DNA from: an uncultured delta proteobacterium
Lineage (GTDB): Bacteria > Desulfobacterota > Syntrophorhabdia > Syntrophorhabdales > WCHB1-27
Direction of reading: 5' to 3'
NCBI GenBank assembly: GCA_963835605.1
Contig: CAWIHO010000045.1
Span: forward strand, 12,713 to 44,712
DNA: 32,000 nt
Of this stretch, positions 12,664-31,313 are shown piece by piece. Below the pieces are notes generated by a model. That model was not told the origin of the DNA, ran no database searches, and saw only the letters and a program-made list of their open reading frames with translations. Each line of letters begins with the position of its first letter. Positions within the stretch are counted from its first letter, which is position 1. The position numbers and the translations under genes were made by a program.

Positions 12664-12786
12664 AGACCAATTCCTCCGGACAAATTCTCGCCGCAGCCAT
12701 AAGCTGCCCTTGTTGCTCAAGAAAGTGCCAGCAAATAAATGCTATTGATTCAACGCATTGTCAAGAAGTTTTTTGCTTGACAGGGG

Positions 12787-14443
12787 CCCTCTAACGGCCT
12801 GTTGCCCAAATCGCTGAGATAAGTTTCTTCTGGGAAAGACGGCGAGAAAAAAATTGTTCATAATTGTATACAATTTACTTGCATTTATATGGGACGTATG
12901 CTATGCTTCGAAAACGCTCAGAGCAAGGAGATACGGCCTATGATGGGTCATCAGTCCCCGCCTCAGGATCCTCTCTTTTCTGTCAATGTTCAGCTTGAAA
13001 CAAGGGTGCGCACTGACCACCCTCTCCGAAGCGTGAAGGAGCTGATTGATTTCGATTTTGTCTATAACGAGGTAGCCGCTACGTATGGGGAAAACGGCAA
13101 CGTCTCTGTTCCTCCTCCCGTCATCCTGAAGCTCATGCTCCTGCTCATCCTGTACAATGTCCGTTCTGAACGGGAACTGATGGAAACGCTTCCCGAACGG
13201 CTCGATTGGCTCTGGTTCCTGGGCTACACCCTTGATACCGAGATTCCCGATCACAGCGTTCTCTCCAAGGCGCGCACGCGCTGGGGAAAGGAAGCCTTCA
13301 AACACTTCTTTGAACGGATCGTCCTCGCGTGTGTCAAGGCCGGGTTGGTTGACGGAATGAAGATCTTCGTAGATAGCAGCTTCATCGATGCCGATGCGTC
13401 AAACGGCGCTGTTATCGATACCCACGCACTCAGCCGCTACCTCAACGAACGATACCAGGGGTTGGAGAAGCGACTGGAGGAGAAGGAAGTCGCGGAGCCT
13501 CGCACCGACCACGTGGTCAATCGACGCTATCTCTCCACCACCGATCCCGACGCATCCATCGTGCGGCAGGGAAAAGGCGGCGCAAAACTGCAGTATAAGA
13601 CCCACCGGGCCGTTGATGCAGGCTGCGAGATCATTACCGCGGTGGAGGTAACACCCGGTGCCATCAACGAAGGGCACAAGATGGCCTCTCTTATCGACGG
13701 GCACGAGGCAACGACGGACACAAAGATAGCAACAGTCGTTGCCGACAGCCAGTACGGTACCAAAGAGAATTTCCTGCTCTGCCACGATAAAGGGATAGCT
13801 GCCCACATGCCCGTGGTAAAGTACCTCAACGAAGCGTCACGGAAGGGAATATTCTCGGAGGACCAATTTGTCTACGACAGGAAGACCGATACCTTCATAT
13901 GCCCTGCCGGGCAGCCCTTGAAAGGAAGAACGCTCCATGGGCAGAACCGTGAGTACCTTGCCTCACGGAGCGCCTGTCGTTCCTGCCCGCTCAAGCCACA
14001 GTGTACCAGGGCCAGGGTAAGAACCTTACAGCGCCATAGCCGCCAGGAAGCGCTTGACCATATGTTCCTTGAGGCACGAACCCCACAGGCGAAACGCGAC
14101 ATCGCCACCCGCCAATACCTCATGGAACGCTCGTTTGCAAGAAGTACGCGCTATGGATTTGATCGAGCGCGGTGGCGAGGTCTCTGGAGAGTGGCCATCC
14201 AGGAATACTTAGTCTGTGCACTCCAGAACATCATGACGCTCGTGAGGTTCGTACAAAGGCCCACGAGGGGGATACGCACGCTCCCGATCCGAGCAAAGCG
14301 TGTGCTGTACGCGATGACCAGCGGCGTCCTGCGTATCCGATTAATTGTTCCTTTACGACGTGCCCCACAGCGGTGTTCTTCCGTTCGAGATGACGACGAG
14401 CACCACGTGGCTATCCTGGTTTGGGCAACAGGCCGCTAATGGG
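12787..14443 (+). mobile_element. Insertion sequence, IS1182/IS5-like, apparently intact
   Basis: Terminal inverted repeats TAACGGCCTGTTGCCCAAA (12792-12810) and TTTGGGCAACAGGCCGCTA (14420-14438) match at 18 of 19 positions. A further CCC/GGG match lies a few bases outward. They flank a single transposase gene whose stop codon lies inside the right repeat. No target-site duplication was recognised. Confidence 0.8.
12940..14439 (+). CDS. DDE transposase (IS1182/IS5-like; InsH-type N-terminal domain plus C-terminal DDE domain)
   Basis: The track ORF starts at 12889. I prefer ATG 12940 because AAGGAG lies 9 nt upstream. The sequence (PLRSVKELIDF...PPVILKLMLLLILYNVRSERELMETLPERLDWLWFLGY...HSVLSKARTRWG...FVDSSFIDADAS...) is typical of this transposase group. 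Confidence 0.85.
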   Translation: MMGHQSPPQDPLFSVNVQLETRVRTDHPLRSVKELIDFDFVYNEVAATYGENGNVSVPPPVILKLMLLLILYNVRSERELMETLPERLDWLWFLGYTLDTEIPDHSVLSKARTRWGKEAFKHFFERIVLACVKAGLVDGMKIFVDSSFIDADASNGAVIDTHALSRYLNERYQGLEKRLEEKEVAEPRTDHVVNRRYLSTTDPDASIVRQGKGGAKLQYKTHRAVDAGCEIITAVEVTPGAINEGHKMASLIDGHEATTDTKIATVVADSQYGTKENFLLCHDKGIAAHMPVVKYLNEASRKGIFSEDQFVYDRKTDTFICPAGQPLKGRTLHGQNREYLASRSACRSCPLKPQCTRARVRTLQRHSRQEALDHMFLEARTPQAKRDIATRQYLMERSFARSTRYGFDRARWRGLWRVAIQEYLVCALQNIMTLVRFVQRPTRGIRTLPIRAKRVLYAMTSGVLRIRLIVPLRRAPQRCSSVRDDDEHHVAILVWATGR

Positions 14444-14529
14444 TACTAATCCTTGACCTTGGCTTCTCTTGCAGAGTGAAGATTGCCATGCGAAAGTAAG
14501 ACGATGTACCTCTCTAAACACAATTTTTC

Positions 14530-14557
14530 TTGACATGTGGTGTAACCGTGCTACGAT
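14530..14557 (+). promoter_or_regulatory. Candidate sigma70-type promoter driving the riboswitch leader
   Basis: TTGACA-16 nt-TACGAT, ending about 8 nt before the proposed aptamer P1. Confidence 0.5.
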
Positions 14558-14564
14558 TGGATTA

Positions 14565-14665
14565 ATCTGCTAAAACCAAACCATCCGTGAGGATGGGACG
14601 GAAAGCCAGCGGGTCTCAGAGAGGCATCTTGGTAACGCAGCAGTCAGACAGCCGGGCCGCCAGAT
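14565..14665 (+). promoter_or_regulatory. Candidate GEMM-I class (c-di-GMP-I / cGAMP) riboswitch aptamer
   Basis: CAAACC-AUCC-GUGA-GGAU-GGGACGGAAAGCC resembles the recalled Vc2/GEMM-I core (GGCAAACC...GNRA hairpin...GGGACGCAAAGCC). The second helix is symmetric: GCC-AG-CGG-GUCU (14604-14615) pairs with AGAC-AG-CCG-GGC (14646-14657). P1 is AUCUG (14565-69) pairing with CAGAU (14661-65). Not verified with a covariance model. Confidence 0.6.
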
Positions 14666-14687
14666 AAAGGCGGCTCTTCTTTTTTTT
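14654..14687 (+). terminator. Intrinsic terminator forming the riboswitch expression platform
   Basis: 8-bp GC-rich stem GGGCCGCC (14654-61) / GGCGGCUC (14669-76), a 7-nt loop, then UUCUUUUUUUU. The 5' arm overlaps the 3' strands of aptamer P3 and P1, so the two folds are mutually exclusive. Confidence 0.7.
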
Positions 14688-14715
14688 GGAGGTTGAGTCA
14701 GCAGGGAGGTCAACC

Positions 14716-15600
14716 ATGTTCAAGCCTAAAGGTCTGCTCTTCGTCGTAGCTCTTCTGTGCGTTCTTTTCGTTACCCCGTTCCACCAAGCGAGTGCCCAGG
14801 AATCGAAGGCGCCCTTGGGCCAGGTCCAGGCCCAGCCGTCCGATGAGGTCGTCTGGCAGCGGTTTCTGGCATGGATGCCGAGCGCTACGGCGGCGGGTGG
14901 CGCACTGCCCGTGATAAACGAATACCTTGCTCAACTGACCTCCGCCGGCACTCCGGCCGCAGAAATCGACCGCCAGAGAAGCGTGATCTCCCGCATGATG
15001 AAGGAAAGGCCGGAGGGCCAGCGTATCCTTTACAACAAGACGTACACAAGCAGCAGCCCTCAGTTCACGACGCAGCCGAATGCGCTCCTGGTCTCGACGG
15101 TCGAAGGCCGCAAACCGGGGCGTGCCCTGGACGTCGGCATGGGCCAGGGCCGGAACGCGCTGTTTCTTGCCATGAAAGGCTGGGACGTCACCGGGTTCGA
15201 CATTTCTGATGAGGGTATAGCGGTGGCCCGCAAGAACGCCGAACGTGCCGGGGTGAAGGTCAACGCGGTCCAACAGACCGTCGAGGCCTTCGACTATGGC
15301 ATCGACCAGTGGGACCTGATCGTCTTCGTGTACGAGCCATTTCCGGTGACCTCGGCGGCGTATGTCGAGCGCCTGCGCAAGTCGCTAAAGACAGGCGGGC
15401 TTTTCGTGTTTGAAACCCATGCTGCGGAGCCCGGCAAGCCCCGTCCCACAATTGCCGTCGATGACCCTCTTCAGGTATTGGCCGCCTTCAAGGATTTTCG
15501 GCTCCTTTACTTCCAGGATACCGTCACAAGGCCCGACTGGCCGGCACGAGAGGGTGAGGAGAGCCGTATCGTCCGTATGGTCGTCGAGAAGCGGCCGTAA
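14716..15600 (+). CDS. Class I SAM-dependent methyltransferase-fold protein (TehB-like) with N-terminal Sec-type signal peptide
   Basis: The track ORF starts at TTG 14686. I prefer ATG 14716, which has GGGAGG 6 nt upstream. The N-terminus MFKPKGLLFVVALLCVLFVTPFHQASA/QE looks like a signal peptide with an AXA site. SAM motif I is LDVGMGQGRNALFLA. Confidence 0.8.
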   Translation: MFKPKGLLFVVALLCVLFVTPFHQASAQESKAPLGQVQAQPSDEVVWQRFLAWMPSATAAGGALPVINEYLAQLTSAGTPAAEIDRQRSVISRMMKERPEGQRILYNKTYTSSSPQFTTQPNALLVSTVEGRKPGRALDVGMGQGRNALFLAMKGWDVTGFDISDEGIAVARKNAERAGVKVNAVQQTVEAFDYGIDQWDLIVFVYEPFPVTSAAYVERLRKSLKTGGLFVFETHAAEPGKPRPTIAVDDPLQVLAAFKDFRLLYFQDTVTRPDWPAREGEESRIVRMVVEKRP

Positions 15601-15713: not shown

Positions 15714-16379
15714 TCACCGTACCTTTACCGCTTTAACATAATCCACAGGTGGATTGGCTACCCTGGATGTATCCTTCATCCTTTCAACTAGGACGACCTT
15801 GAAGCCTGTACTCTCCAACTTGTCACGGAGCACAGGCTGACTGAGCAACTTCGGTATAGGCATTATTGTGTGACTTATCCTGAAGCCAGAGTAATAAGCC
15901 CGAATCACGAAAATCAGAAAATACGCCAGGTTCAATCCGGTGGTCAAATTCGCGATGATCAGGGTACCCCCTGGCTTCAGGATTCGCTTCATCTCAGACA
16001 GGGTTTTATCAGGATTCTCCACGTGATGAAGGACCAAGCTCATAATGGCAGTATCGAACTCCCTATCCAGAAAGGTGGTGCTCTGACAGTCGGCCACCTG
16101 AAACTGAACATTCGTGAAGCCCGTTACGTTCTCCTTCGCCAGCCGTACCATGTCGTCAGATAAATCCGTCGCAATCAGACTATCCGCTTTCCCTGCAAGG
16201 ACCTTTGTCATAAAGCCTGTTCCACAGCCGAACTCTGCTACCTTACCCAGACGCCCTTCCGCACTAAGCTTTTCTCTTATCAGCGAGAGCGTGTTCTTCC
16301 CCAACATCGCATCTGCCAGAGCCTCATATTGTGGCGATACCTGCGACCAATATGCATATCCCCCTTGTGTAACAGTCAT
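15714..16379 (-). CDS. Class I SAM-dependent methyltransferase (UbiE/Methyltransf_11-like)
   Basis: 221 aa with motif I VAEFGCGTGFMTKVLA and a post-I acidic residue (ATDLS). Confidence 0.8.
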   Translation of the reverse strand: MTVTQGGYAYWSQVSPQYEALADAMLGKNTLSLIREKLSAEGRLGKVAEFGCGTGFMTKVLAGKADSLIATDLSDDMVRLAKENVTGFTNVQFQVADCQSTTFLDREFDTAIMSLVLHHVENPDKTLSEMKRILKPGGTLIIANLTTGLNLAYFLIFVIRAYYSGFRISHTIMPIPKLLSQPVLRDKLESTGFKVVLVERMKDTSRVANPPVDYVKAVKVR

Positions 16380-17280
16380 ATTCTATCCACCCCCCACTGA
16401 TTTGATGGGCGCCTCGCGCCGGTTTCACGCACGGTTCCGGAGCTGCATCCATTTCTACCGCTGCGCCACCGCATAGACTATTGCAACGGATAGATGCAGG
16501 CCATCCTGGCGGACCAGGGGACGCAGCTTGGCAAGGTATTCCTCCTTGAACCGCGCGCGTATCCTCATCCATACGCAGGATCGACGGTCGCGGGCCAATG
16601 GTCAGCTGGAACGCCCACCAATCGTCAAGGCTCGCATAGGCGATGTCGTTCGGCTCACTCCGTAGCTCGATGGAGCGAAAACCGGATCGACTCAGCAGGG
16701 CCTCCACTTCCTCCGACGCGTAGCCTAAGGGTCGCGGCATGCGGACCCAACCTCCATACGCCTCAAACTGTTGGATCAGGAGCGGCCAGCCCGGATTGAA
16801 GGGTGGGGGTGTGTTGCCGAACATGGATATGCCGATAGAGCCGCCAGGCTTGGAGACCCGGTACATCTCCCGCAGCGCAGCCTCCATATCCGGACAAAGA
16901 AAGAGCGAAAGAGCGCAGGTAACGGCATCGAAGGTCTGGTCCGGGAAATCGAGATGCTCGGCATCCATCTTGCGGAAGGTGACGTTGGTCAGGCCCTCTG
17001 CGGCAGCGGCGCGTTCGGCTTCCCGGAGTATCCCTCCGGACAGGTCAATGCCGGTTACCTGTCCCCCTGATCCCACCTGCCGCGCGGCAGCAAGGAGCAC
17101 TGCGCCCGTGCCTGTGGCAACATCGAGCACGCGCGCGCCTTGCTTAAGCGGCATTCGTTCAACCAGGCGCCTGCCGAACTGCGTAAAGACGCTTGGACCG
17201 GTGCGGTTATACGACCTGGCCGCATCGTCGAAGAGTTGCTCAATCACCTGTTTCGTGGCAACCGTTGGCATTGTCTCCAT
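16324..17280 (-). CDS. Class I SAM-dependent methyltransferase whose C-terminus is disrupted by a frameshift; the authentic end is probably 16455
   Basis: Motif I is VLDVATGTGAVLLAAA, and a strong RBS (GAAGGAGGTGA) precedes ATG 17280. After ...RMDEDTRA the track frame becomes low-complexity (VQGGIPCQAASPGPPGW...). An alternative frame reads (R)FKEEYLAKLRPLVRQDGLHLSVAIVYAVAQR and stops at 16455-16457. Confidence 0.75.
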   Translation of the reverse strand: METMPTVATKQVIEQLFDDAARSYNRTGPSVFTQFGRRLVERMPLKQGARVLDVATGTGAVLLAAARQVGSGGQVTGIDLSGGILREAERAAAAEGLTNVTFRKMDAEHLDFPDQTFDAVTCALSLFLCPDMEAALREMYRVSKPGGSIGISMFGNTPPPFNPGWPLLIQQFEAYGGWVRMPRPLGYASEEVEALLSRSGFRSIELRSEPNDIAYASLDDWWAFQLTIGPRPSILRMDEDTRAVQGGIPCQAASPGPPGWPASIRCNSLCGGAAVEMDAAPEPCVKPARGAHQISGGWIEYDCYTRGICILVAGIATI

Positions 17281-18286: not shown

Positions 18287-19108
18287 ATGATTCGCACACA
18301 GGGGCTCACAGTTTCCTATTCCGGCGTCAACGCCCTTTATCCAATGTCAATCGTTTTCAGGGAGCAGGAATTCACCGTGCTCTTAGGTCCTTCAGGAGCG
18401 GGCAAGTCAACACTCCTTCGCAGCCTGAACCTGCTTATCCGGCCTTCGTCAGGATCGATAATGGTTAACGGTGTGGGTGTGGTCAGCGGCGGGAAAGCGT
18501 TGCGCGACCACCGCCGCTGCACCGCAATGATCTTCCAACAGCATCAACTCCTTGATCGTCAGACTGCCCTGCACAACGTCCTCATCGGCCGGCTCGGTTA
18601 TCACTCCACGCTGCGGAGCATCTTTCCTCTTTCCCGCGAGGAACAGATCATCGGTCTCCAGAGCTTGGAGCGTGTGGGTCTTTTGCAGAAGGCGATGGAG
18701 AGGGTCGACCGCTTAAGCGGCGGCGAACGCCAGCGGGTAGGCATCGCGCGCTGCCTGGCCCAAAAACCGCGTATTATTCTCGCGGACGAGCCCGTAGCAA
18801 GCCTTGATCCGGCCACGGCTGAAAAGGTAATGTCGCTTCTCGGCGGGATATGCAGAGAAGACGGTATCACCGCCATCGTAAGCCTGCACCAGGTCTCCAT
18901 CGCCAAACGGTTCGCCGATCGGGTGCTCGGTCTCACTCATGGAAGGATTGTATTCGATGGCACCGCCGATGAGCTGACCGATGGTGCACTTAACCTGATC
19001 TATAACGGCAGTGAAGTTCGAGTAAGGAGAGAATCGAAGGAAGTTGCCCTGGTCTCAGGAGACAGTGTGACCGGGCTGGAGAGCCGGCCGGTCCGGCTCT
19101 ATCAATAA
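18287..19108 (+). CDS. ptxA: Phosphite/phosphonate ABC transporter ATP-binding protein
   Basis: 273 aa with Walker A (GPSGAGKST), the ABC signature (LSGGERQRV) and Walker B (IILADEP). PhnC-like, first gene of the operon that ends in ptxD. RBS GAGGTGG. Confidence 0.85.
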   Translation: MIRTQGLTVSYSGVNALYPMSIVFREQEFTVLLGPSGAGKSTLLRSLNLLIRPSSGSIMVNGVGVVSGGKALRDHRRCTAMIFQQHQLLDRQTALHNVLIGRLGYHSTLRSIFPLSREEQIIGLQSLERVGLLQKAMERVDRLSGGERQRVGIARCLAQKPRIILADEPVASLDPATAEKVMSLLGGICREDGITAIVSLHQVSIAKRFADRVLGLTHGRIVFDGTADELTDGALNLIYNGSEVRVRRESKEVALVSGDSVTGLESRPVRLYQ

Positions 19109-19990
<882 letters not shown>

Positions 19991-19993
19991 CCA

Positions 19994-20794
19994 ATGGCAA
20001 AGATTCAGTACCTTGACGTTCTTGAACTGAAGAGGCGGCGCACTCGAAAGACCATGATACAGGCCTGCTTCGCGCTGCTTCTCGCCGGCGGCTGCCTTTT
20101 TTATGTGGGCTTCTTCGACACGCAGCGCCTGGCTGAAGGGATTCCGGCGATTCTCTCATTGATCACCGAGAGCCTGCCGCCTGATTTCACGGACAGCTTG
20201 AAATGGCTGAAACCTCTGGCCGACACTTTGGCAATGAGCGTCGCGGGCACCTGCCTCGCGGTCGCGCTCTCGCTGCCCCTCGCGCTTCTTGGCTCGGGCG
20301 CCACCTCTCCTCACCCCGCCATCTACCATGTGACACGACTGGTTCTGAATGCGCTCAGATCGGTGCCTGAACTAATCATGGGTATCCTTTTCGTGGCTGC
20401 CGTCGGCTTTGGCGTGCTGCCGGGCGTGCTTGCTCTGGGTCTCCACTCCGTCGGCATGGTCGGCAAGTTCTTTTCCGAAGCCATCGAGCACGTGGACAAC
20501 GAGCCGGTGGAGGCAGTCCGTTCATCGGGTGCCAGTCACCTGCAGGTGATCCTGCACGGTATTCTCCCGCAGGTGCTGCCGCAGATGGCGGATGTGGCTA
20601 TCTACCGGTGGGAGTACAACTTCAGGGCCTCGACCGTGATGGGCATGGTGGGGGCAGGCGGCATCGGTTTCGAGTTGATGGGATCGCTCCGTCTGATGCA
20701 ATACCGCGAAGTGTCGGCCCTCCTTCTTGTGATCCTTGCAATGGTCACCATTGTCGATACCCTTGGCTCCTATCTGAGGAACAGGTTCAAATGA
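19994..20794 (+). CDS. ptxC: Phosphite/phosphonate ABC transporter permease (PhnE/PtxC family)
   Basis: 266-aa polytopic membrane protein in the PhnE position. Its stop overlaps an ATG of the next ORF. Confidence 0.85.
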   Translation: MAKIQYLDVLELKRRRTRKTMIQACFALLLAGGCLFYVGFFDTQRLAEGIPAILSLITESLPPDFTDSLKWLKPLADTLAMSVAGTCLAVALSLPLALLGSGATSPHPAIYHVTRLVLNALRSVPELIMGILFVAAVGFGVLPGVLALGLHSVGMVGKFFSEAIEHVDNEPVEAVRSSGASHLQVILHGILPQVLPQMADVAIYRWEYNFRASTVMGMVGAGGIGFELMGSLRLMQYREVSALLLVILAMVTIVDTLGSYLRNRFK

Positions 20795-20811
20795 AAACGA
20801 ATGGAGGCGTC

Positions 20812-21843
20812 ATGCGACCGCGCCTGGTCATCACCCATTGGGTTCATCCGGAAGTCGTTGATCTTCTGAGCCGCAGCTTTGATGTGATCCCCAACATAAC
20901 GCGTGAGACCCTGCCCCGCGCAGAGGTCCTGCGGCGAGCGCAGGAGGCCGAGGCCATCATGATCTTCATGCCGGATGTAATCGACCGATCATTAGTTGAG
21001 GCATGTCCCCGTTTGAAAATCATTGCGGGGGCCTTCAAGGGCTATGATAACGTTGACGTTGAGGCATGCACTGAGAATGGCGTATGGTTTACGATCATCC
21101 GTGATCTCCTCACCGTCCCCACAGCCGAGCTGGCTGTCGGTCTCCTGATCGGCCTCACCCGTAACATTGCAACGGGAGACTCTTGTGTCCGTACCGGGAG
21201 ATTTACCGGCTGGCGCCCCGTGCTTTACGGAGGCGGACTTGCCGGCAAGACGGTGGGCATCGTTGGGCTGGGCGCCATAGGCCGCACCATCGCAAAATGT
21301 CTTTCGGGCTTCGATGTCAGCCTGATCTACAGTGATCCCATAGAACCGGCGAAGCCTGTCAGTCCCGGGCTGATGCGTGTCTCCTTCGGCGATCTTCTCG
21401 AACAGAGCGATTATGTTATCCTCTCGCTACCGCTCAGTTCCGCAAGTTTTCATCTGATCAACAGGGAGAGCTTGGCGCGCATGAAAGCCGGCGCTTATCT
21501 TGTGAACGTCGGAAGGGGCTCAGTGGTGGATGAACAGGCGATCGCTGACTTCCTCGAGTCGGGTCACCTTGCCGGTTATGCGGCCGACGTGTTTGAAATG
21601 GAAGATCTTTCTAGGGGTGACCGCCCCCTTGCGATTCCCGAACACCTGCTTCAAACCCACCATAGGACACTCTTTACTCCGCACCTCGGTTCAGCGGTGG
21701 ACGAGGTGAGGCGGGCAATAGCGCTTGAGGCAGCAGCCAATATCTTTGAGGCACTGAATGGAGAAAGACCGAAAGGGGCGATAAACGACCCGCGTACCAC
21801 GTGCGAACCGCCATACGCGCAGTCCGTTACGTACGGACTCTGA
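20812..21843 (+). CDS. ptxD: NAD-dependent phosphite (phosphonate) dehydrogenase
   Basis: The track ORF 20608..21843 begins inside ptxC. I place the start at ATG 20812 (MRPRLVITH...), 5 nt after GGAGG, matching the recalled P. stutzeri PtxD N-terminus MLPKLVITH. D-2-hydroxyacid dehydrogenase fold with VGLGAIGRT (NAD site), GRGSVVDE and FTPHLGSA (catalytic Arg/Glu/His positions), and GYAADVFEMED. Confidence 0.85.
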   Translation: MRPRLVITHWVHPEVVDLLSRSFDVIPNITRETLPRAEVLRRAQEAEAIMIFMPDVIDRSLVEACPRLKIIAGAFKGYDNVDVEACTENGVWFTIIRDLLTVPTAELAVGLLIGLTRNIATGDSCVRTGRFTGWRPVLYGGGLAGKTVGIVGLGAIGRTIAKCLSGFDVSLIYSDPIEPAKPVSPGLMRVSFGDLLEQSDYVILSLPLSSASFHLINRESLARMKAGAYLVNVGRGSVVDEQAIADFLESGHLAGYAADVFEMEDLSRGDRPLAIPEHLLQTHHRTLFTPHLGSAVDEVRRAIALEAAANIFEALNGERPKGAINDPRTTCEPPYAQSVTYGL

Positions 21844-22215: not shown

Positions 22216-22728
22216 CTATTTCGTGTCGGAGATCTTCTTTTCGAATGCATCCCAGAAAGCAGAATCGGGCTTGCGCCAATAAGGGCCCCATTCTTCCCCC
22301 AAAACCCCCTCGATCTCTTTCAGGAGCCGCTTCCAGGCAGGGCCGTATTCATACGTCAGGACGTCCTCGAGCAGGGGGACCAAGGTACCGAGTTTGTCCT
22401 TGGGCAGGTATGCCCGTGCTCCCAACTCTATCGACGTCTTGAGGGCTTCGGGCGAGAGGGCGTGGGCGGTGAGCATCACGGCAGGCATCGGATACGGGCG
22501 GGCGGTTGCCTGCTGAAGAAGATCAAAACCTCGGACGCCCATGATATCCAGGATAACGAGATCATAGGTCCATAAGCCAAGGAGCCGGGATGCTTCCTGG
22601 TAGATGGTGGCTGTCTCCACCTTACTCTTCGGGGCAGCCGACAGGATCTCTTGCTTGAGTATCGTGAGAACATCGGGCTCATCGTCTACCGCGAGAATTG
22701 TCTTGTGGTTCAAAACCGATTCTGACAT
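22216..22728 (-). CDS. Single-domain response regulator (CheY-like receiver) with ~45-aa conserved C-terminal extension
   Basis: 170 aa with receiver signature residues: VDDEPD, the VILDIMG phospho-acceptor Asp, MLTAH and YLPKD. Confidence 0.85.
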   Translation of the reverse strand: MSESVLNHKTILAVDDEPDVLTILKQEILSAAPKSKVETATIYQEASRLLGLWTYDLVILDIMGVRGFDLLQQATARPYPMPAVMLTAHALSPEALKTSIELGARAYLPKDKLGTLVPLLEDVLTYEYGPAWKRLLKEIEGVLGEEWGPYWRKPDSAFWDAFEKKISDTK

Positions 22729-22831
22729 TCGCTCCTCCTTTGCGGCTGAGGGGTAATGGAGAGCCGGGTGCGCTTCTGACAGAGTTCAGTGATGTCGACG
22801 GCGCGCTCGGCAGAAGCCCCGGTCTGCGCCC

Positions 22832-23311
22832 CTAGTACCAAAAGGTGACATCAGCTCTTCCTTTCCACCCAGGATCAAACTGGTCGTCAAAGTAACTCTC
22901 CAATTTCTCCAGGAGTCGCTTCCAGCCCGCCTTATACTCGTGGGTGAGGACGTCCTCTAAGAACGGAATAATCTCTCCCAGCTTATCCTTCGGCAGATAG
23001 GCGCGCGCACCAAGGTCATGGGATTTCTTGAGGGCCTCGGGCGTGAGGTCATGCGCAGTGAGCATAGCTACTCTGAAATTCCTTTTCACGGCCAGGTCGA
23101 GGAGGTCGAATCCACGTACGCCCATGATGTCGAGGATCACGATGTCGTACGTGTTTTCGCTGATCAGCTCGGCCGCTTTCCCGTGGGTGGTGGCCTTGTC
23201 GACCTTGCAGTTCGGGCAGGAATCCTTGATCTCCTCTTCCAGCACGGTTAGTACGTCGGGTTCATCGTCTACGGCCAATATCCTTTTGCCATCTAGAATC
23301 GAAGCGGCCAT
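22832..23311 (-). CDS. Single-domain response regulator, paralogue of 22216..22728
   Basis: 159 aa with the same receiver motifs and the same C-terminal extension (LEDVLTHEY..GWKRLLEKLE...W). Confidence 0.85.
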   Translation of the reverse strand: MAASILDGKRILAVDDEPDVLTVLEEEIKDSCPNCKVDKATTHGKAAELISENTYDIVILDIMGVRGFDLLDLAVKRNFRVAMLTAHDLTPEALKKSHDLGARAYLPKDKLGEIIPFLEDVLTHEYKAGWKRLLEKLESYFDDQFDPGWKGRADVTFWY

Positions 23312-23613: not shown

Positions 23614-24702
23614 TCAACTATATTTAATTCCCCCTGCAACAAAAGATGTTTTGTGGCTCAACATTGCAAAGATCACGCGAATGAGTTTATGGGCTGTCGC
23701 GAGAACAGCCTTTTTGTAAATGAGCCCTTCTTCTCTTCTCCTGAAGAAGTAGGCCTGAAGACTTCATTGTTGGTAATGACCCTGGTGGTCATCAGCCAGA
23801 TGACCCTCCGGAGATGGCGATTTCCTCTTTTGCTGATCTTGCTTTCTCCTTCGTATTTGCCTGATTGATAGGTCGAAGGATCGAGCCCTGCAGCAGCGAT
23901 CAGCTTCCGGTCATGTTCGAACGCCTTTATATCTCCTCCCACCTCGATCAAGAAGTTGAATGCGGTCTTGTCGCCGATACCTCGCATGGAGGTGAGGATC
24001 TTTGCGTCTCGCTGTATCTTCTCACCTGAAAGATCCATGGTGAGCTGCATGATCTCTTCGGCCTGCCCCTCAAGCGCAAGAAGCAGGGAGGCTTCCTGTT
24101 TCAGGATCATATCTTTTGCCGGACTCGCAACGCCCACGGATGTGGTTGCGGCATCCATGGGCAGAAGGAAACTCAGTAAGAAGACGAAGCGTTGCTTTGG
24201 TAAAGATACCGGTGATGGTCTCCAGTTCCGGGAAGGTCACGGAGAGAATCCGCTTCATGTCGTTCTTCAGCGACGTCATCTGGTCTACGAGCCTCTCCCT
24301 TCTTCGGGAAAGATCTCTGAGCTCAGTAACGTGAGGGGATGCGGTGTGCGTGGTCACCGCCTTCTTTTGAAGGAGCAAGAACTGCGCTATGGTAAAGGCA
24401 TCTTTCTTATCCGTCTTTGTTTTTCTCAAAGACAATTTTGCGAAGTTTGCGATCAGCAGAGGGTTGATAATAGCAACGCGATAGCCTTTTGCGGTAAGAT
24501 ACGAAAACAGGGCGATATGGTAACTGGCCGTGGATTCCATACCGAGGAGCAGGGATGCCGTGCTCACCGCCGCCAACCTTGTCACGAGCTTGTCAAATCC
24601 CTCTCGGTTCATCGGGAAGGAGAGGGAGAATACCTTCTTCCCTTCATCGCCAATCCCACACGCATCACATTTCTCTTTCGGCACATCGATTCCAACATAC
24701 AT
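23614..24702 (-). pseudogene. IS110-family transposase/recombinase gene (DEDD N-terminal domain plus Transposase_20 C-terminal domain) broken by two frameshifts
   Basis: The N-terminal frame (24702 down to about 24160) reads MYVGIDVPKEK...GMESTASYH...KTDKKDA. The middle frame (about 24158-23755) reads SVGVASPAKDMILKQ...SMRGIGDKTAFNFLIEVGG...SGKYEGESKISKRGNRHLRRV. The last frame, which is the same frame as the N-terminus, reads AYFFRRREEGLIYKKAVLATAHKLIRVIFAMLSHKTSF and stops at 23614. RBS AAGGAGG precedes the ATG. Confidence 0.8.
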
Positions 24703-29501: not shown

Positions 29502-30238
29502 TTTTTCGTCTCTTTGATCAGCCCGAGGGGAAAGACTTTTGTCATCACATCATCAACCCATCTGCAAGCATCGAGGGGGCTCATCTTCCAATTCGTCGGA
29601 CAGGGCGAAAGGATCTCCACCAATGAAAAGCCCGTCTTCTGCAACTGATGTCGAAAGGCCCTTGCTATAGCCTTCTTCGTCTTGATGATTCCCGCGGGTT
29701 TGTTCACGGCCACGCGCTCCAGGTAGGACGTGCCATCGAGCGTGGCGTAGACTTCACAAATTTTTACCGGATGGCCCTGGATAACAGAGTCCCTCCCTGC
29801 CGGCGACGTTGTGGTCACCTGTTCCAGCATGGTGGTCGGGGCCATCTGTCCGCCCGTCATACCGTAAACCCCGTTATTCACGAAAATCACAGAGATGAGC
29901 TCTCCGCGATTTGCCGCGTGAAAACCTTCGGCGGTGCCGATAGCCGCGAGGTCCCCGTCGCCCTGGTACGAGAAGACAAGATTCTCCGGCCGCACGCGCT
30001 TGATGCCCGTTGCTACGGCAGCGCCGCGCCCATGGGCCGATTCTATCGTATCGAAGTCGAAATAGTTGTAGAGGAGCATGCCGCAGCCTGCCGGCGCAAC
30101 GCAGATCGTCTTGTCCCGCAGCTCCATCTCATCCACGACCTCCGCGATGAGCCGGGTTATGACGCCGTGTCCGCATCCGGGGCAGTAATGGAAGTGGGCT
30201 TCTTTCATCGATTTGGGCCGGGCATAGACGGTCTTCAC
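29495..30238 (-). CDS. 2-oxoacid:ferredoxin oxidoreductase beta subunit (TPP-binding)
   Basis: 247 aa with CPGCGHG and the GDGD...NNGVYGMTGGQ thiamine-diphosphate motif. Confidence 0.9.
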   Translation of the reverse strand: MKTVYARPKSMKEAHFHYCPGCGHGVITRLIAEVVDEMELRDKTICVAPAGCGMLLYNYFDFDTIESAHGRGAAVATGIKRVRPENLVFSYQGDGDLAAIGTAEGFHAANRGELISVIFVNNGVYGMTGGQMAPTTMLEQVTTTSPAGRDSVIQGHPVKICEVYATLDGTSYLERVAVNKPAGIIKTKKAIARAFRHQLQKTGFSLVEILSPCPTNWKMSPLDACRWVDDVMTKVFPLGLIKETKKC

Positions 30239-31313
30239 TGCTTCTTACCCCGCTGTGACTGGTAGAAATGGCGCGCGATGATCCGGGAGAGTTCTACGGG
30301 CGTGGGAATCACGCCTCCGGGTCTGCCATAAAAATGAATGTGCCCTTTGCCTTCCAGGGAAAGTTTGACGTCTTCGATCATTTGACCGGTGCTCATTTCA
30401 AACACAAAAAAGTCGCTGAGCTGCTTGGCTGTCTCCTGGATGATCTTCTTGGGAAAGGGCCAGAGTGAAATGGGGCGGATCAGTCCCACCTTCAAGCCCT
30501 CCTGCCTCAAGCGCTTGATCGCCCCTTTTGCGATCCGTGCGGCAATGCCGTAAGCAAGCACGGCCATGTCGGCATCATCAAGAAGAAACGTCTCGTAGCG
30601 CACCTCGTTTCGCTCCATCAGCTGATACTTTCTGAAGAGCTTCCAGTTATGCTCCTCCTCTTCCTTCGTATCAAAAAGGAGAGAGCGGATCATCCTGGAG
30701 GGACGCCCGCTGGCGCCTGACAGCACATAATCTTTCGGATATTCTTTCTTCGGTCGATCGGCTGCGTAGTGAACGTCACCGGCTCCATCATCTGACCGAG
30801 CATGCCATCGCCCAGTATGACCACGGGATTTCTGTATGCATCGGCCAGGTCAAATGCGACATTGACCAACTCGGCAGCCTCCTGCACGGATGCCGGGGCA
30901 AGAACGATCGTTCTGTAGTCGCCGTGGCCCCCGCCGCGCGTGGCCTGCAAATAGTCGGATTGCGCGGGAGAGATATTGCCCATGCCGGGTCCGCCGCGCA
31001 TCATGTTCACGATGACGGCAGGCAGCTCATCCGCGGCCAGATAGGAGACGCCTTCCTGCTTCAGGCTGATACCGGGTCCGCTGGAGGAGGTCATTGCACG
31101 CGCGCCGGCGGCAGACGCACCCAGCACCATGTTGATCGCCGCTATCTCGCTTTCAGACTGGATGAAAACAGCGCCGGGAACTTCGGCAATGCGCTTCGCC
31201 ATATACTCAGTCAGTTCATTCTGCGGTGTGATAGGATAGCCAAAGTAAGCGGTACATCCCGCCAGAACCGCGGCTTCTCCTACGGCGCTATTGCCGCTCA
31301 TCAGTCTTTTCAA
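30235..31313 (-). CDS. 2-oxoacid:ferredoxin oxidoreductase alpha subunit, split into two track ORFs by a single-base frame break near 30752-30764
   Basis: ORF 30690..31313 ([20 protein letters not shown]...[13 protein letters not shown]) and ORF 30235..30726 (in-frame upstream extension [12 protein letters not shown], then [14 protein letters not shown]...[12 protein letters not shown]...) together give a colinear alpha subunit. The span is 1,079 nt, one short of a multiple of three. Confidence 0.8.

What the first reader, a model, noticed from the sequence alone, without database searches (positions are those of the whole stretch)
14530..14715. GEMM-I-like cyclic-dinucleotide riboswitch with a terminator-based ON platform
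The element has a near-consensus promoter (TTGACA-16-TACGAT) followed by about 100 nt that fold, by eye, into the GEMM-I architecture.
- P1 is AUCUG (14565-69) pairing with CAGAU (14661-65).
- The first hairpin, CCAUCC-GUGA-GGAUGG, is capped by a GYRA tetraloop.
- It is followed by GACGGAAAGCC (recalled Vc2: GACGCAAAGCC).
- The second helix is symmetric: GCC-AG-CGG-GUCU pairs with AGAC-AG-CCG-GGC.

A strong intrinsic terminator (8-bp stem, U-run) shares nucleotides 14654-14665 with the 3' strands of P3 and P1. Ligand-stabilised aptamer folding should therefore prevent termination, giving an ON switch.

The GYRA loop and the lack of an 11-nt receptor motif fit what was described as type 2 GEMM RNAs (Sudarsan et al. 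2008).
Basis: partly seen in the sequence, partly recalled or inferred. Interest (0 to 1): 0.75.

Follow-up and report, generated by a model that had tools for sequence, protein, structure and literature searches.

The report
Cyclic-dinucleotide riboswitch with variant pocket
This is a genuine member of the well-known c-di-GMP-I (GEMM-I) riboswitch family, built to switch on a secreted methyltransferase gene by blocking a terminator; its only unusual feature is one pocket base (A instead of G) that in studied relatives lets the RNA also, or instead, sense 3',3'-cGAMP.

Summary
Rfam's c-di-GMP-I model (RF01051) matches window 14565-14664 end to end at 52.3 bits (gathering score 35, E 1.2e-7). 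All 23 proposed P1/P2/P3 pairs are canonical. The promoter (TTGACA-16-TACGAT), the 8-bp terminator with its U-run, and the overlap with the 3' strands of P3 and P1 are all present as described.

The ON-switch logic follows from that overlap. A thermodynamic fold gives the terminator a pair probability of about 1 without ligand. Related leaders keep the same design.

The downstream gene encodes a 294-aa TehB-like SAM methyltransferase with a signal peptide. The closest relatives are Syntrophorhabdales MAG proteins.

The nucleotide equivalent to Vc2 G20 is A (14575), while A47 and C92 are kept. A20 is the signature of the cGAMP-sensing GEMM-Ib subclass, and the G20A change makes Vc2 bispecific. 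All eight related leaders I recovered have G there. The A is therefore a lineage-specific change, or possibly an assembly error.

Verdict: an ordinary new member of a known riboswitch class. Its ligand is predicted to be c-di-GMP and/or 3',3'-cGAMP and cannot be settled in silico.

The parts
14530..14557 (+). Sigma-70-type promoter: -35 TTGACA (14530-35), 16-nt spacer with a TG extension, -10 TACGAT (14552-57). The inferred transcription start is about 14564-65, at the first P1 nucleotide.
   Evidence: 10 of 12 matches; 1 site found against 0.3 expected. The -35 box and its spacing are conserved in orthologous leaders L002 and L169. The start site is inferred, not shown.
14565..14665 (+). GEMM-I (c-di-GMP-I family) aptamer, from the P1 5' strand to the P1 3' strand.
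   Evidence: RF01051 at 52.3 bits against a gathering score of 35, E 1.2e-7, full model. All 23 pairs are canonical. My own model R1 finds homologous aptamers in related loci.
14565..14569 (+). P1 5' strand AUCUG, pairing with 14661-14665 CAGAU.
   Evidence: A-U becomes G-U in L161 and L169.
14575..14575 (+). A at the position equivalent to Vc2 G20 (Rfam model position 11, consensus G). This is the ligand alpha-base contact and the GEMM-Ib / G20A signature.
   Evidence: Alignment (posterior probability '*'). All eight related leaders have G here. Meaning of A20: PMC6140456.
14576..14601 (+). P2 arm: C21-C22 (14576-77) pair with G45-G46 (14600-01); AAA; hairpin CCAUCC-GUGA-GGAUGG (14581-96) with a GYRA tetraloop; GAC.
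   Evidence: One compensatory U-A to C-G change occurs among relatives.
14602..14604 (+). AAA linker. 14602 is equivalent to the intercalating A47.
   Evidence: alignment. The linker is 'virtually always AAA' (PMC1950547).
14605..14657 (+). P3: GCC/GGC, a symmetric AG/AG internal loop, CGG/CCG, GUCU/AGAC, and a 29-nt variable distal region (14617-45). There is no 11-nt tetraloop receptor.
   Evidence: G-C becomes A-U compensatorily in L004 and L083.
14660..14660 (+). C equivalent to Vc2 C92, the Watson-Crick partner of the ligand's G-beta.
   Evidence: alignment. Role of C92: PMC6140456 and PMC5888326.
14654..14687 (+). Intrinsic terminator: stem GGGCCGCC (14654-61) / GGCGGCUC (14669-76), loop AGAUAAA, U-run UUCUUUUUUUU (14677-87). 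Its 5' arm is made of the P3 3' strand, the C92 equivalent and the first P1 3' nucleotide.
   Evidence: Hairpin at -14.9 kcal/mol. Pair probabilities 0.98-1.0 in the ligand-free ensemble.
14704..14718 (+). Shine-Dalgarno GGGAGG (14704-09) and start codon ATG (14716-18).
   Evidence: Conserved in orthologous leaders.
14716..15600 (+). Regulated gene: a 294-aa protein with an N-terminal Sec-type signal peptide (MFKPKGLLFVVALLCVLFVTPFHQASA|QE) and a class I SAM-dependent methyltransferase domain (TehB / Slr1183-like). It is monocistronic, because the next genes are on the minus strand.
   Evidence: Pfam, NCBIfam (no equivalog reached), PDB profile search, homologues. The signal peptide was read by eye.

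Best explanation
This is a single-aptamer riboswitch of the c-di-GMP-I / GEMM-I family. It sits in the 5' leader of an exported TehB-like SAM methyltransferase gene and acts as a transcriptional ON switch.

Transcription starts at about 14564-65. Without ligand, the 5' strand of P3 pairs locally with the distal P3 sequence. The 3' strand of P3, the C92 equivalent and the first P1 nucleotide (14654-61) are then free to pair with 14669-76. This forms an 8-bp GC-rich hairpin followed by a U-run, and transcription ends before the gene.

When a cyclic dinucleotide binds at the P1/P2/P3 junction, between position 20 (14575), A47 (14602) and C92 (14660), P1 and P3 are locked. The terminator's 5' arm is unavailable and RNA polymerase reads through into the gene. 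The fold difference (-43 against -26 kcal/mol) is too large for equilibrium switching, so the decision must be kinetic and co-transcriptional.

Position 20 is A, not G. The pocket therefore reads A20/A47/C92, the pocket of 3',3'-cGAMP-sensing GEMM-Ib RNAs and of the bispecific Vc2 G20A mutant. I predict the RNA binds 3',3'-cGAMP and also c-di-GMP, the latter less tightly than a G20 aptamer would. Which one acts in vivo depends on whether the host makes cGAMP.

Shown here: family membership by covariance-model score, the helices, the strand overlap, and conservation of the design. Inferred: the transcription start, ON direction in vivo, kinetic control, and ligand identity.
For: - **Family:** RF01051 at 52.3 bits against a threshold of 35, over the full model. 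All 23 helix pairs are canonical. The AAA linker, A47, C92 and a GYRA loop are present.
- **Homologous aptamers:** they sit in the same place upstream of orthologous and paralogous methyltransferase genes in eight other loci. 92.5% of pair cells are kept, against 25-45% in slid controls, and three pairs change compensatorily.
- **Platform:** the terminator was found by scan. Ligand-free ensemble probability of every terminator pair is 0.98-1.0, and of every P1 and P3 pair 0.0003 or less.
- **Conserved design:** terminator hairpins built on the same P3/P1 3' strands, but with different 3' arms, occur in L161 (GGGCCGC/GCGGCCC), L169a, L169b, L004 and L083.
- **Literature on the platform:** terminators overlapping the 3' side of this helix occur in 78 of 322 GEMM RNAs (PMC1950547). 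In Geobacter, GEMM-Ib leaders are ON switches whose terminator mutants bypass the need for ligand (PMC6456294).
- **A20:** alignment, model position 11. Vc2 G20A binds c-di-GMP at 53 nM and cGAMP at 120 nM. Gs1761 (A14) prefers cGAMP. Cbe 1-2 is bispecific (PMC6140456).
Against:
- The covariation evidence from relatives is thin. There are nine close sequences, and most pairs are invariant.
- A20 appears only in this window, while all eight related leaders have G. It could be a neutral or slightly deleterious recent mutation, or an assembly error. The window contains at least one apparently frameshifted gene.
- No cyclic-dinucleotide synthase of any kind is encoded in the 32-kb window, so cGAMP production by the host is unknown.
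- The nearest relative, L091, lacks the terminator, so the platform evolves quickly.
Confidence: 0.85

Rival explanations
1. It is functionally an ordinary c-di-GMP riboswitch. The A at 14575 is a recent neutral or mildly weakening substitution, or a base-calling or assembly error. The only ligand it meets in vivo is c-di-GMP, as for its G20 orthologues.
For: All eight related leaders carry G20, so the ancestral regulon is c-di-GMP. A20 aptamers still bind c-di-GMP through a protonated adenine: Vc2 G20A at 53 nM, Cbe 1-2 at 30 nM (PMC6140456). No cGAMP synthase is visible in the window. The window has a split VorB-like gene, suggesting imperfect sequence.
Against: Position 20 is an upper-case, near-invariant G in the Rfam consensus. 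The one substitution seen here is exactly the one known to preserve function while changing specificity. The rest of the aptamer, the promoter, the terminator and the ORF are intact, which argues against relaxed selection.
Confidence: 0.45
2. It is a true GEMM-Ib riboswitch. It would be selective for 3',3'-cGAMP and would have moved this one methyltransferase gene from the c-di-GMP regulon into a cGAMP regulon in a Syntrophorhabdales lineage.
For: The A20/A47/C92 pocket is the defining signature of cGAMP riboswitches (PMC6140456, PMC5888326). It has a terminator-type ON platform, as in Geobacter GEMM-Ib (PMC6456294). Its weak, AU-rich 5-bp natural P1 is the sort of feature suggested to favour cGAMP selectivity (PMC6140456). 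Hypr GGDEFs are said to have arisen in ancestral deltaproteobacteria (PMC6456294), the traditional home of Syntrophorhabdus.
Against: A20 alone gives bispecific, not selective, binding in Vc2 and Cbe 1-2 (PMC6140456). A20 is not conserved in any orthologous leader. There is no evidence that the host makes cGAMP. The regulated gene is unlike the electron-transfer genes of the known regulon.
Confidence: 0.25
3. It is a decaying, non-functional remnant. The pocket mutation, a U-to-A change in the distal P3 region and an IS1182 insertion 87 bp upstream would mark a locus that is no longer regulated.
For: A20 is unique to the window. Window 14618 is A where all close relatives have U. An IS element lies at 12787-14443. 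Other possibly broken genes are in the window.
Against: The aptamer still scores 17 bits above threshold with all pairs canonical. The promoter is near-consensus and the terminator is the strongest among the relatives. The ORF is intact and 94% identical to orthologues. The IS lies outside the conserved promoter/leader block.
Confidence: 0.07
4. It is a chance resemblance. On this view the hairpins are only a promoter-proximal structure and a terminator (attenuator) unrelated to cyclic dinucleotides.
For: None beyond the general caution that consensus scans give false positives (notes 1.3 terminator-like sites expected per shuffle).
Against: The covariance-model E-value is 1.2e-7 across 4227 families. 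The same aptamer is conserved upstream of homologous genes in independent metagenomes.
Confidence: 0.01

Closest known systems
c-di-GMP-I riboswitch (GEMM-I; Rfam RF01051; prototype Vibrio cholerae Vc2)
   Same: Three-helix architecture (P1, P2 with a tetraloop, P3). Conserved GAC-G-N-AAAGCC junction, AAA linker, A47 and C92. 5'-UTR location. Score above the family threshold.
   Different: Position 20 is A, not the conserved G. The G21-C46 pair is flipped to C-G. The loop is GYRA (GUGA) with no tetraloop receptor, where Vc2 has GAAA plus a receptor. The host and the regulated gene differ (Syntrophorhabdales; exported methyltransferase).
3',3'-cGAMP riboswitches (GEMM-Ib; e.g. Geobacter sulfurreducens Gs1761 and pgcA leaders)
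   Same: GEMM-I scaffold with A at the G20-equivalent position. C92 and A47 are retained. Terminator-based ON platform (PMC6140456, PMC6456294).
   Different: Not in Geobacter. It regulates a methyltransferase rather than cytochromes or pili. A20 is not conserved among its own orthologues (8 of 8 have G). Selectivity is untested, and a cGAMP synthase has not been shown in the host.
[quoted passage not shown]
   Same: A c-di-GMP-type scaffold that differs from G20 relatives by the single pocket change. This predicts nanomolar binding of both c-di-GMP and cGAMP (PMC6140456).
   Different: Those were characterised in vitro. This one is a natural variant known only from sequence.
c-di-GMP-I-GGC variant (Rfam RF03167)
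   Same: The closest relatives of this leader (L091, L161, L004/L082) score 58-59.5 bits to this model, at or near its threshold of 59.
   Different: The variant is defined by G at position 47 (model consensus GACGCGAAgCc). The window and all its relatives have A47. The window gave no gathering-level hit to RF03167. The similarity comes from the shared scaffold, not the pocket.

Membership tests
c-di-GMP-I / GEMM-I riboswitch (RF01051) | Covariance-model score at or above the curated gathering score. | tested here: met
   52.3 bits against 35, E 1.2e-7, model positions 1-87 of 87.
c-di-GMP-I / GEMM-I riboswitch (RF01051) | P1, P2 and P3 helices around a three-way junction, with an AAA linker between P2 and P3. 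| tested here: met
   23 of 23 pairs canonical. AAA at 14602-04. Pairs are kept in 92.5% of cells across nine related leaders, with three compensatory pairs.
c-di-GMP-I / GEMM-I riboswitch (RF01051) | GNRA-type tetraloop closing P2. | tested here: met
   GUGA at 14587-90.
c-di-GMP-I / GEMM-I riboswitch (RF01051) | Ligand-contact nucleotides G20, A47 and C92. | tested here: not met
   A47 (14602) and C92 (14660) are present. Position 20 (14575) is A, not G (alignment, model position 11). The scaffold is that of the family, but the pocket is not the c-di-GMP-specific one.
c-di-GMP-I / GEMM-I riboswitch (RF01051) | 5' regulatory position with an expression platform. | tested here: met
   Promoter, then aptamer, terminator, Shine-Dalgarno and ATG within 190 nt.
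c-di-GMP-I / GEMM-I riboswitch (RF01051) | Binds c-di-GMP and changes gene expression. | not testable with these tools
   Needs in-line probing or ITC, and transcription assays.
3',3'-cGAMP riboswitch (GEMM-Ib) | GEMM-I scaffold with A at the position equivalent to Vc2 G20 (A14 of Gs1761). | tested here: met
   A at 14575. Definition from PMC6140456.
3',3'-cGAMP riboswitch (GEMM-Ib) | Selective binding of 3',3'-cGAMP over c-di-GMP. | not testable with these tools
   A20 alone gives bispecific binding in Vc2 G20A and Cbe 1-2 (PMC6140456).
3',3'-cGAMP riboswitch (GEMM-Ib) | Host makes 3',3'-cGAMP (Hypr GGDEF such as GacA, or a DncV-type enzyme). | tested here: inconclusive
   No GGDEF, EAL, HD-GYP or CD-NTase domain among the window's ORFs of 150 aa or more that were scanned. 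Several of those ORFs, and all shorter ones, were not scanned, and the rest of the genome is not available.
3',3'-cGAMP riboswitch (GEMM-Ib) | A20 conserved in orthologous leaders, as expected for a selected specificity. | tested here: not met
   L091, L161, L169 (two aptamers), L002, L004/L082, L083 and L081 all have G.
c-di-GMP-I-GGC variant (RF03167) | G at position 47 (G20/G47/C92) and a score at or above 59 bits. | tested here: not met
   A at 14602. No RF03167 hit at gathering level in the window. The model consensus is shown.
GEMM RNAs with a GYRA loop and no receptor ('type 2') | GYRA tetraloop on the first hairpin, and no 11-nt tetraloop receptor in the second. | tested here: met
   GUGA loop. 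No CCUAAG or UAUGG in 14565-14665. Description in PMC1950547. Sudarsan 2008 itself could not be read.
Rho-independent terminator | GC-rich stem-loop immediately followed by a U-run. | tested here: met
   8 bp (7 G-C, 1 G-U), 7-nt loop, 10 U in 11 nt. -14.9 kcal/mol.

The most novel reading that the evidence does not exclude
A very recent natural G20A change has re-tuned one member of a c-di-GMP-controlled family of exported methyltransferase genes in a Syntrophorhabdales bacterium. It would now respond to 3',3'-cGAMP, alone or together with c-di-GMP. This would be a snapshot of a riboswitch changing ligand by one mutation while all its orthologues and paralogues keep G20. It would also imply riboswitch-read cGAMP signalling outside Geobacter and its relatives.
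Probability: 0.2. Interest if true: 0.55.

Novelty: new member of a known kind. Interest (0 to 1): 0.3.

Why it matters
The element is what a standard Rfam annotation would label a c-di-GMP-I riboswitch, so it does not change what is known about the class.

Two modest points add value.
- **A new regulon.** Cyclic-dinucleotide signalling in uncultured Syntrophorhabdales is tied to a family of signal-peptide-bearing TehB-like methyltransferases of unknown substrate. Several paralogues each carry their own aptamer.
- **A natural specificity pair.** This copy carries the single pocket change (G20 to A) that separates c-di-GMP from cGAMP sensing, while its orthologues do not. If the base is real, the window and L091/L161 form a ready-made natural pair for testing how one mutation shifts ligand specificity in an otherwise near-identical scaffold.

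Tried and rejected
- **Source contig.** An exact-sequence look-up of the window's methyltransferase and of P0001 found no contig on record. The source contig and further copies of this exact leader could not be retrieved. The other members of its 90% cluster are C-terminal fragments without leaders. The A at 14575 therefore has no independent confirmation.
- **GGC variant.** I considered that the leader belongs to the c-di-GMP-I-GGC variant, because close relatives hit RF03167. I rejected this: position 47 is A in all of them.
- **More distant orthologues.** L001, L003 and L163-L168, and most of the 160 genome and metagenome loci, have no GEMM aptamer upstream. L081, missed by Rfam at E up to 0.1, was picked up by my own model R1 at 40 bits. 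The association is confined to a Syntrophorhabdales-like subclade.
- **Key papers.** Nelson 2015, Kellenberger 2015, Weinberg 2017 (all PNAS) and Sudarsan 2008 are not held. Statements about them come from open papers that cite them.
- **Direct comparison with validated GEMM-Ib RNAs.** Searches for published GEMM-Ib sequences (Gs1761, pgcA) in text and supplements found none. My recollection that Gs1761 shares the C-G flipped 21-46 pair and the CCAUCC-GYGA-GGAUGG hairpin is from memory only.
- **Minus-strand terminator.** The terminator-like hit at 14596-14581 is the P2 hairpin read backwards, with no gene to terminate.
- **Translational control.** A GGUUGA/UCAACC hairpin around the Shine-Dalgarno sequence is not conserved in L091 or L161. 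I did not pursue it.

Full report
**1. Observation**

- A near-consensus promoter: TTGACA 14530-35, a 16-nt spacer with a TG extension, and TACGAT 14552-57. It is the only promoter-like site in 14000-15200, against 0.3 expected from shuffles.
- Seven nucleotides downstream comes a 101-nt element, 14565-14665.
- Rfam's c-di-GMP-I model (RF01051) matches 14565-14664 on the + strand over its whole length (positions 1-87). The score is 52.3 bits against a gathering score of 35, with E = 1.2e-7. It is the only Rfam hit in the 32-kb window.
- All 23 base pairs of the proposed helices are canonical:
  - P1: 14565-69 with 14661-65.
  - The two-pair helix: 14576-77 with 14600-01.
  - P2: 14581-86 with 14591-96.
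  - P3: 14605-07 with 14655-57, 14610-12 with 14652-54, and 14613-16 with 14646-49.
- The P2 loop is GUGA, a GYRA loop. The P2-P3 linker is AAA. No 11-nt tetraloop receptor (CCUAAG / UAUGG) is present. This fits the published statement that GEMM RNAs with GYRA loops almost never have the receptor (PMC1950547).

**2. Expression platform**

An intrinsic terminator follows the aptamer. Its stem is GGGCCGCC 14654-61 paired with GGCGGCUC 14669-76, with loop AGAUAAA and then UUCUUUUUUUU 14677-87. The hairpin alone folds at -14.9 kcal/mol.

The terminator's 5' arm is made of four aptamer elements:
- the last P3b nucleotide (14654);
- the P3a 3' strand (14655-57);
- the C92-equivalent nucleotide (14660);
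- the first nucleotide of the P1 3' strand (14661).

The rest of P1 lies in the terminator loop. Aptamer and terminator are therefore mutually exclusive.

In a nearest-neighbour model of the leader 14565-14690, the minimum-energy fold (-43.0 kcal/mol) contains the terminator. Each terminator pair has probability 0.98-1.0, while every P1 and P3 pair is at 0.0003 or below. Enforcing the aptamer costs 17 kcal/mol (-26.0). In that ligand-free fold, the 5' strand of P3 is taken up by the distal P3 sequence (GUCUC/GAGGC and GCCAG/UUGGU).

I infer that the default state is termination, and that a ligand-stabilised aptamer gives read-through (ON). Because the gap is so large, the choice must be made co-transcriptionally. 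This layout was already described for 78 of 322 GEMM RNAs (PMC1950547). Geobacter GEMM-Ib leaders behave as ON switches whose terminator mutants bypass the ligand (PMC6456294).

**3. What it controls**

The Shine-Dalgarno sequence GGGAGG (14704-09) and the ATG at 14716 open a 294-codon gene, 14716-15600. Its product has a typical Sec signal peptide (read by eye) and a class I SAM-dependent methyltransferase domain of the TehB type. It reaches no named NCBIfam equivalog. Its nearest solved relatives are the uncharacterised Slr1183 and TehB. The next genes are on the other strand, so the unit is monocistronic.

The closest database proteins that carry names are from Syntrophorhabdales MAGs. The window's own genome is not among the GTDB representatives; the best match there is 66% identical.

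No GGDEF, EAL, HD-GYP or CD-NTase domain was found among the window's larger ORFs that I scanned.

**4. Relatives**

I fetched 172 loci encoding homologues of the methyltransferase. I scanned them with Rfam and with my own covariance model R1.

Homologous aptamers lie directly upstream of the gene in these loci:

| Locus | Relationship to the window's protein |
|---|---|
| L091 | 94% identical |
| L161 | 93% identical |
| L169, L170, L171 | same leader sequence in all three; the downstream gene is in the window protein's 90%-identity cluster |
| L172 | partial leader |
| L002 | 63% identical, Syntrophorhabdales |
| L081 | 63% identical |
| L004 (= L082), L083 | paralogues |

- In L169 and L171, two tandem paralogous methyltransferase genes each have their own aptamer.
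- More distant homologues lack the aptamer. These include Binatia, Alphaproteobacteria and Acidobacteriota loci, plus L001 and L163-168.
- Across the nine distinct aptamers, 92.5% of pair cells are standard pairs, against 25-45% when partners are slid. Three pairs show compensatory changes. This is weak but positive support. The sequences are too close to each other to give more.
- Terminator hairpins built on the same P3/P1 3' strands, but with different 3' arms, occur in L161, both L169 leaders, L004 and L083. L091 and L081 share a different platform without a terminator.
- The promoter's -35 box and spacing are conserved in L002 and L169.

**5. The pocket**

In the Rfam alignment, model position 11 is a conserved G equivalent to Vc2 G20. 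This nucleotide pairs with the ligand's alpha base. In the window it is A (14575, posterior probability '*'). A47 (14602) and C92 (14660) are retained.

All eight related aptamers have G at this position. The neighbouring G21-C46 pair is flipped to C-G in the whole group.

Several relatives score best against RF03167 (c-di-GMP-I-GGC). That model's consensus has G at position 47, whereas all these sequences have A. They are not GGC variants.

From the literature:
- In cGAMP-binding riboswitches, G20 is replaced by A (A14 in Gs1761).
- The single G20A change makes Vc2 bispecific: Kd 53 nM for c-di-GMP and 120 nM for cGAMP. Wild type binds c-di-GMP at picomolar Kd and cGAMP at 10 uM.
- Gs1761 prefers cGAMP, and Cbe 1-2 binds both.
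- P1 stability may contribute to selectivity (all PMC6140456; see also PMC5888326).

The window's RNA is therefore predicted to accept 3',3'-cGAMP and to retain weakened c-di-GMP binding. Which ligand matters in vivo cannot be decided from 32 kb.

Only this sequence has A20, and the window contains at least one apparently frameshifted gene (a VorB-like gene split at about 30700). A neutral recent mutation or a sequence error cannot be excluded. I could not retrieve independent copies of this exact leader.

**6. Comparison and verdict**

- **How it works.** The element works like, and by score and architecture is a member of, the GEMM-I scaffold family.
- **Where it fails.** It fails one defining feature of the c-di-GMP-specific pocket (G20). 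It meets the one sequence feature that defines GEMM-Ib (A20). It lacks the supporting features of a selected cGAMP riboswitch: conservation of A20 in orthologues, and a demonstrated cGAMP source.
The interpretation, a GEMM-I-like cyclic-dinucleotide riboswitch with a terminator-based ON platform and a GYRA loop without a receptor, is supported. The unnoticed A20 is the only point of real interest.
- **Classification.** A new member of a known kind, of modest interest.

Noticed in passing
window 12787-14443: An IS1182-family insertion sequence. It has 24-nt terminal inverted repeats (12787-12810 / 14420-14443, 88% complementary) and a 516-aa transposase (12889-14439; NCBIfam IS1182 at 333.9 bits). 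It ends 87 bp upstream of the riboswitch promoter. Homology to orthologous leaders resumes just after it (about 14462 onward), so it has replaced whatever lay upstream. In L169 that is another riboswitch-controlled methyltransferase gene.
   Followed up: partly
L169 44-145 and 1351-1451 (also L171): Two tandem paralogous exported TehB-like methyltransferase genes, each preceded by its own GEMM-I aptamer with G20. The riboswitch-methyltransferase pairing is a small multi-copy regulon in this lineage.
   Followed up: partly
L004 2763-2841 (= L082 1263-1341); L083 194-272: Rfam labels these paralogue leaders c-di-GMP-I-GGC (59.5 and 53.1 bits), but they have A, not G, at position 47. In the alignment, the column of C92 reads U. 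That would give a G20/A47/U92 pocket, which could pair with an adenine at the beta site. P1 is poorly defined there, so the register is uncertain.
   Followed up: no
L091 118-166; L081 802-852: Two leaders, including the window's closest relative, share a different expression platform without a terminator (...CGACCCC...CUGGAGGGCGGGUC...). The platform is exchanged or evolves much faster than the aptamer.
   Followed up: no
window 30235-31313 (-): A VorB-like 2-oxoacid:ferredoxin oxidoreductase alpha subunit is split into two overlapping ORFs. 30690-31313 matches model positions 4-189, and 30235-30726 matches positions 197-347. This is a frameshift, pseudogene or assembly indel, and it bears on how far single bases in this window can be trusted.
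   Followed up: no
window 15714-17280 (-): Two more class I SAM methyltransferase genes (UbiE/ArsM-like) lie on the opposite strand, convergent with the riboswitch-controlled gene. ORF 16324-17280 has an odd low-complexity C-terminal extension overlapping the start of the next gene, possibly a frameshift.
   Followed up: no
window 18287-21843 (+): PhnC, PhnD and PhnE-type ABC transporter genes are followed by a D-2-hydroxyacid dehydrogenase-family gene. This layout resembles ptxABCD (phosphite uptake and oxidation). The resemblance to ptxABCD is from memory. The dehydrogenase reaches no NCBIfam equivalog cut-off.
   Followed up: no
window 23673-24158 (-): A short ORF with an IS110-family Transposase_20 domain only. 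It is probably a remnant of a second mobile element. Two stand-alone response-regulator receiver genes lie next to it (22216-23311).
   Followed up: no
window 12759-12778 and 14516-14535: A 20-nt imperfect inverted repeat (75%) places TTCTTGACA-like -35 boxes facing outward on both sides of the IS. One serves the riboswitch promoter. The other faces the minus-strand molybdopterin dehydrogenase operon (start 12720). This may be chance.
   Followed up: no
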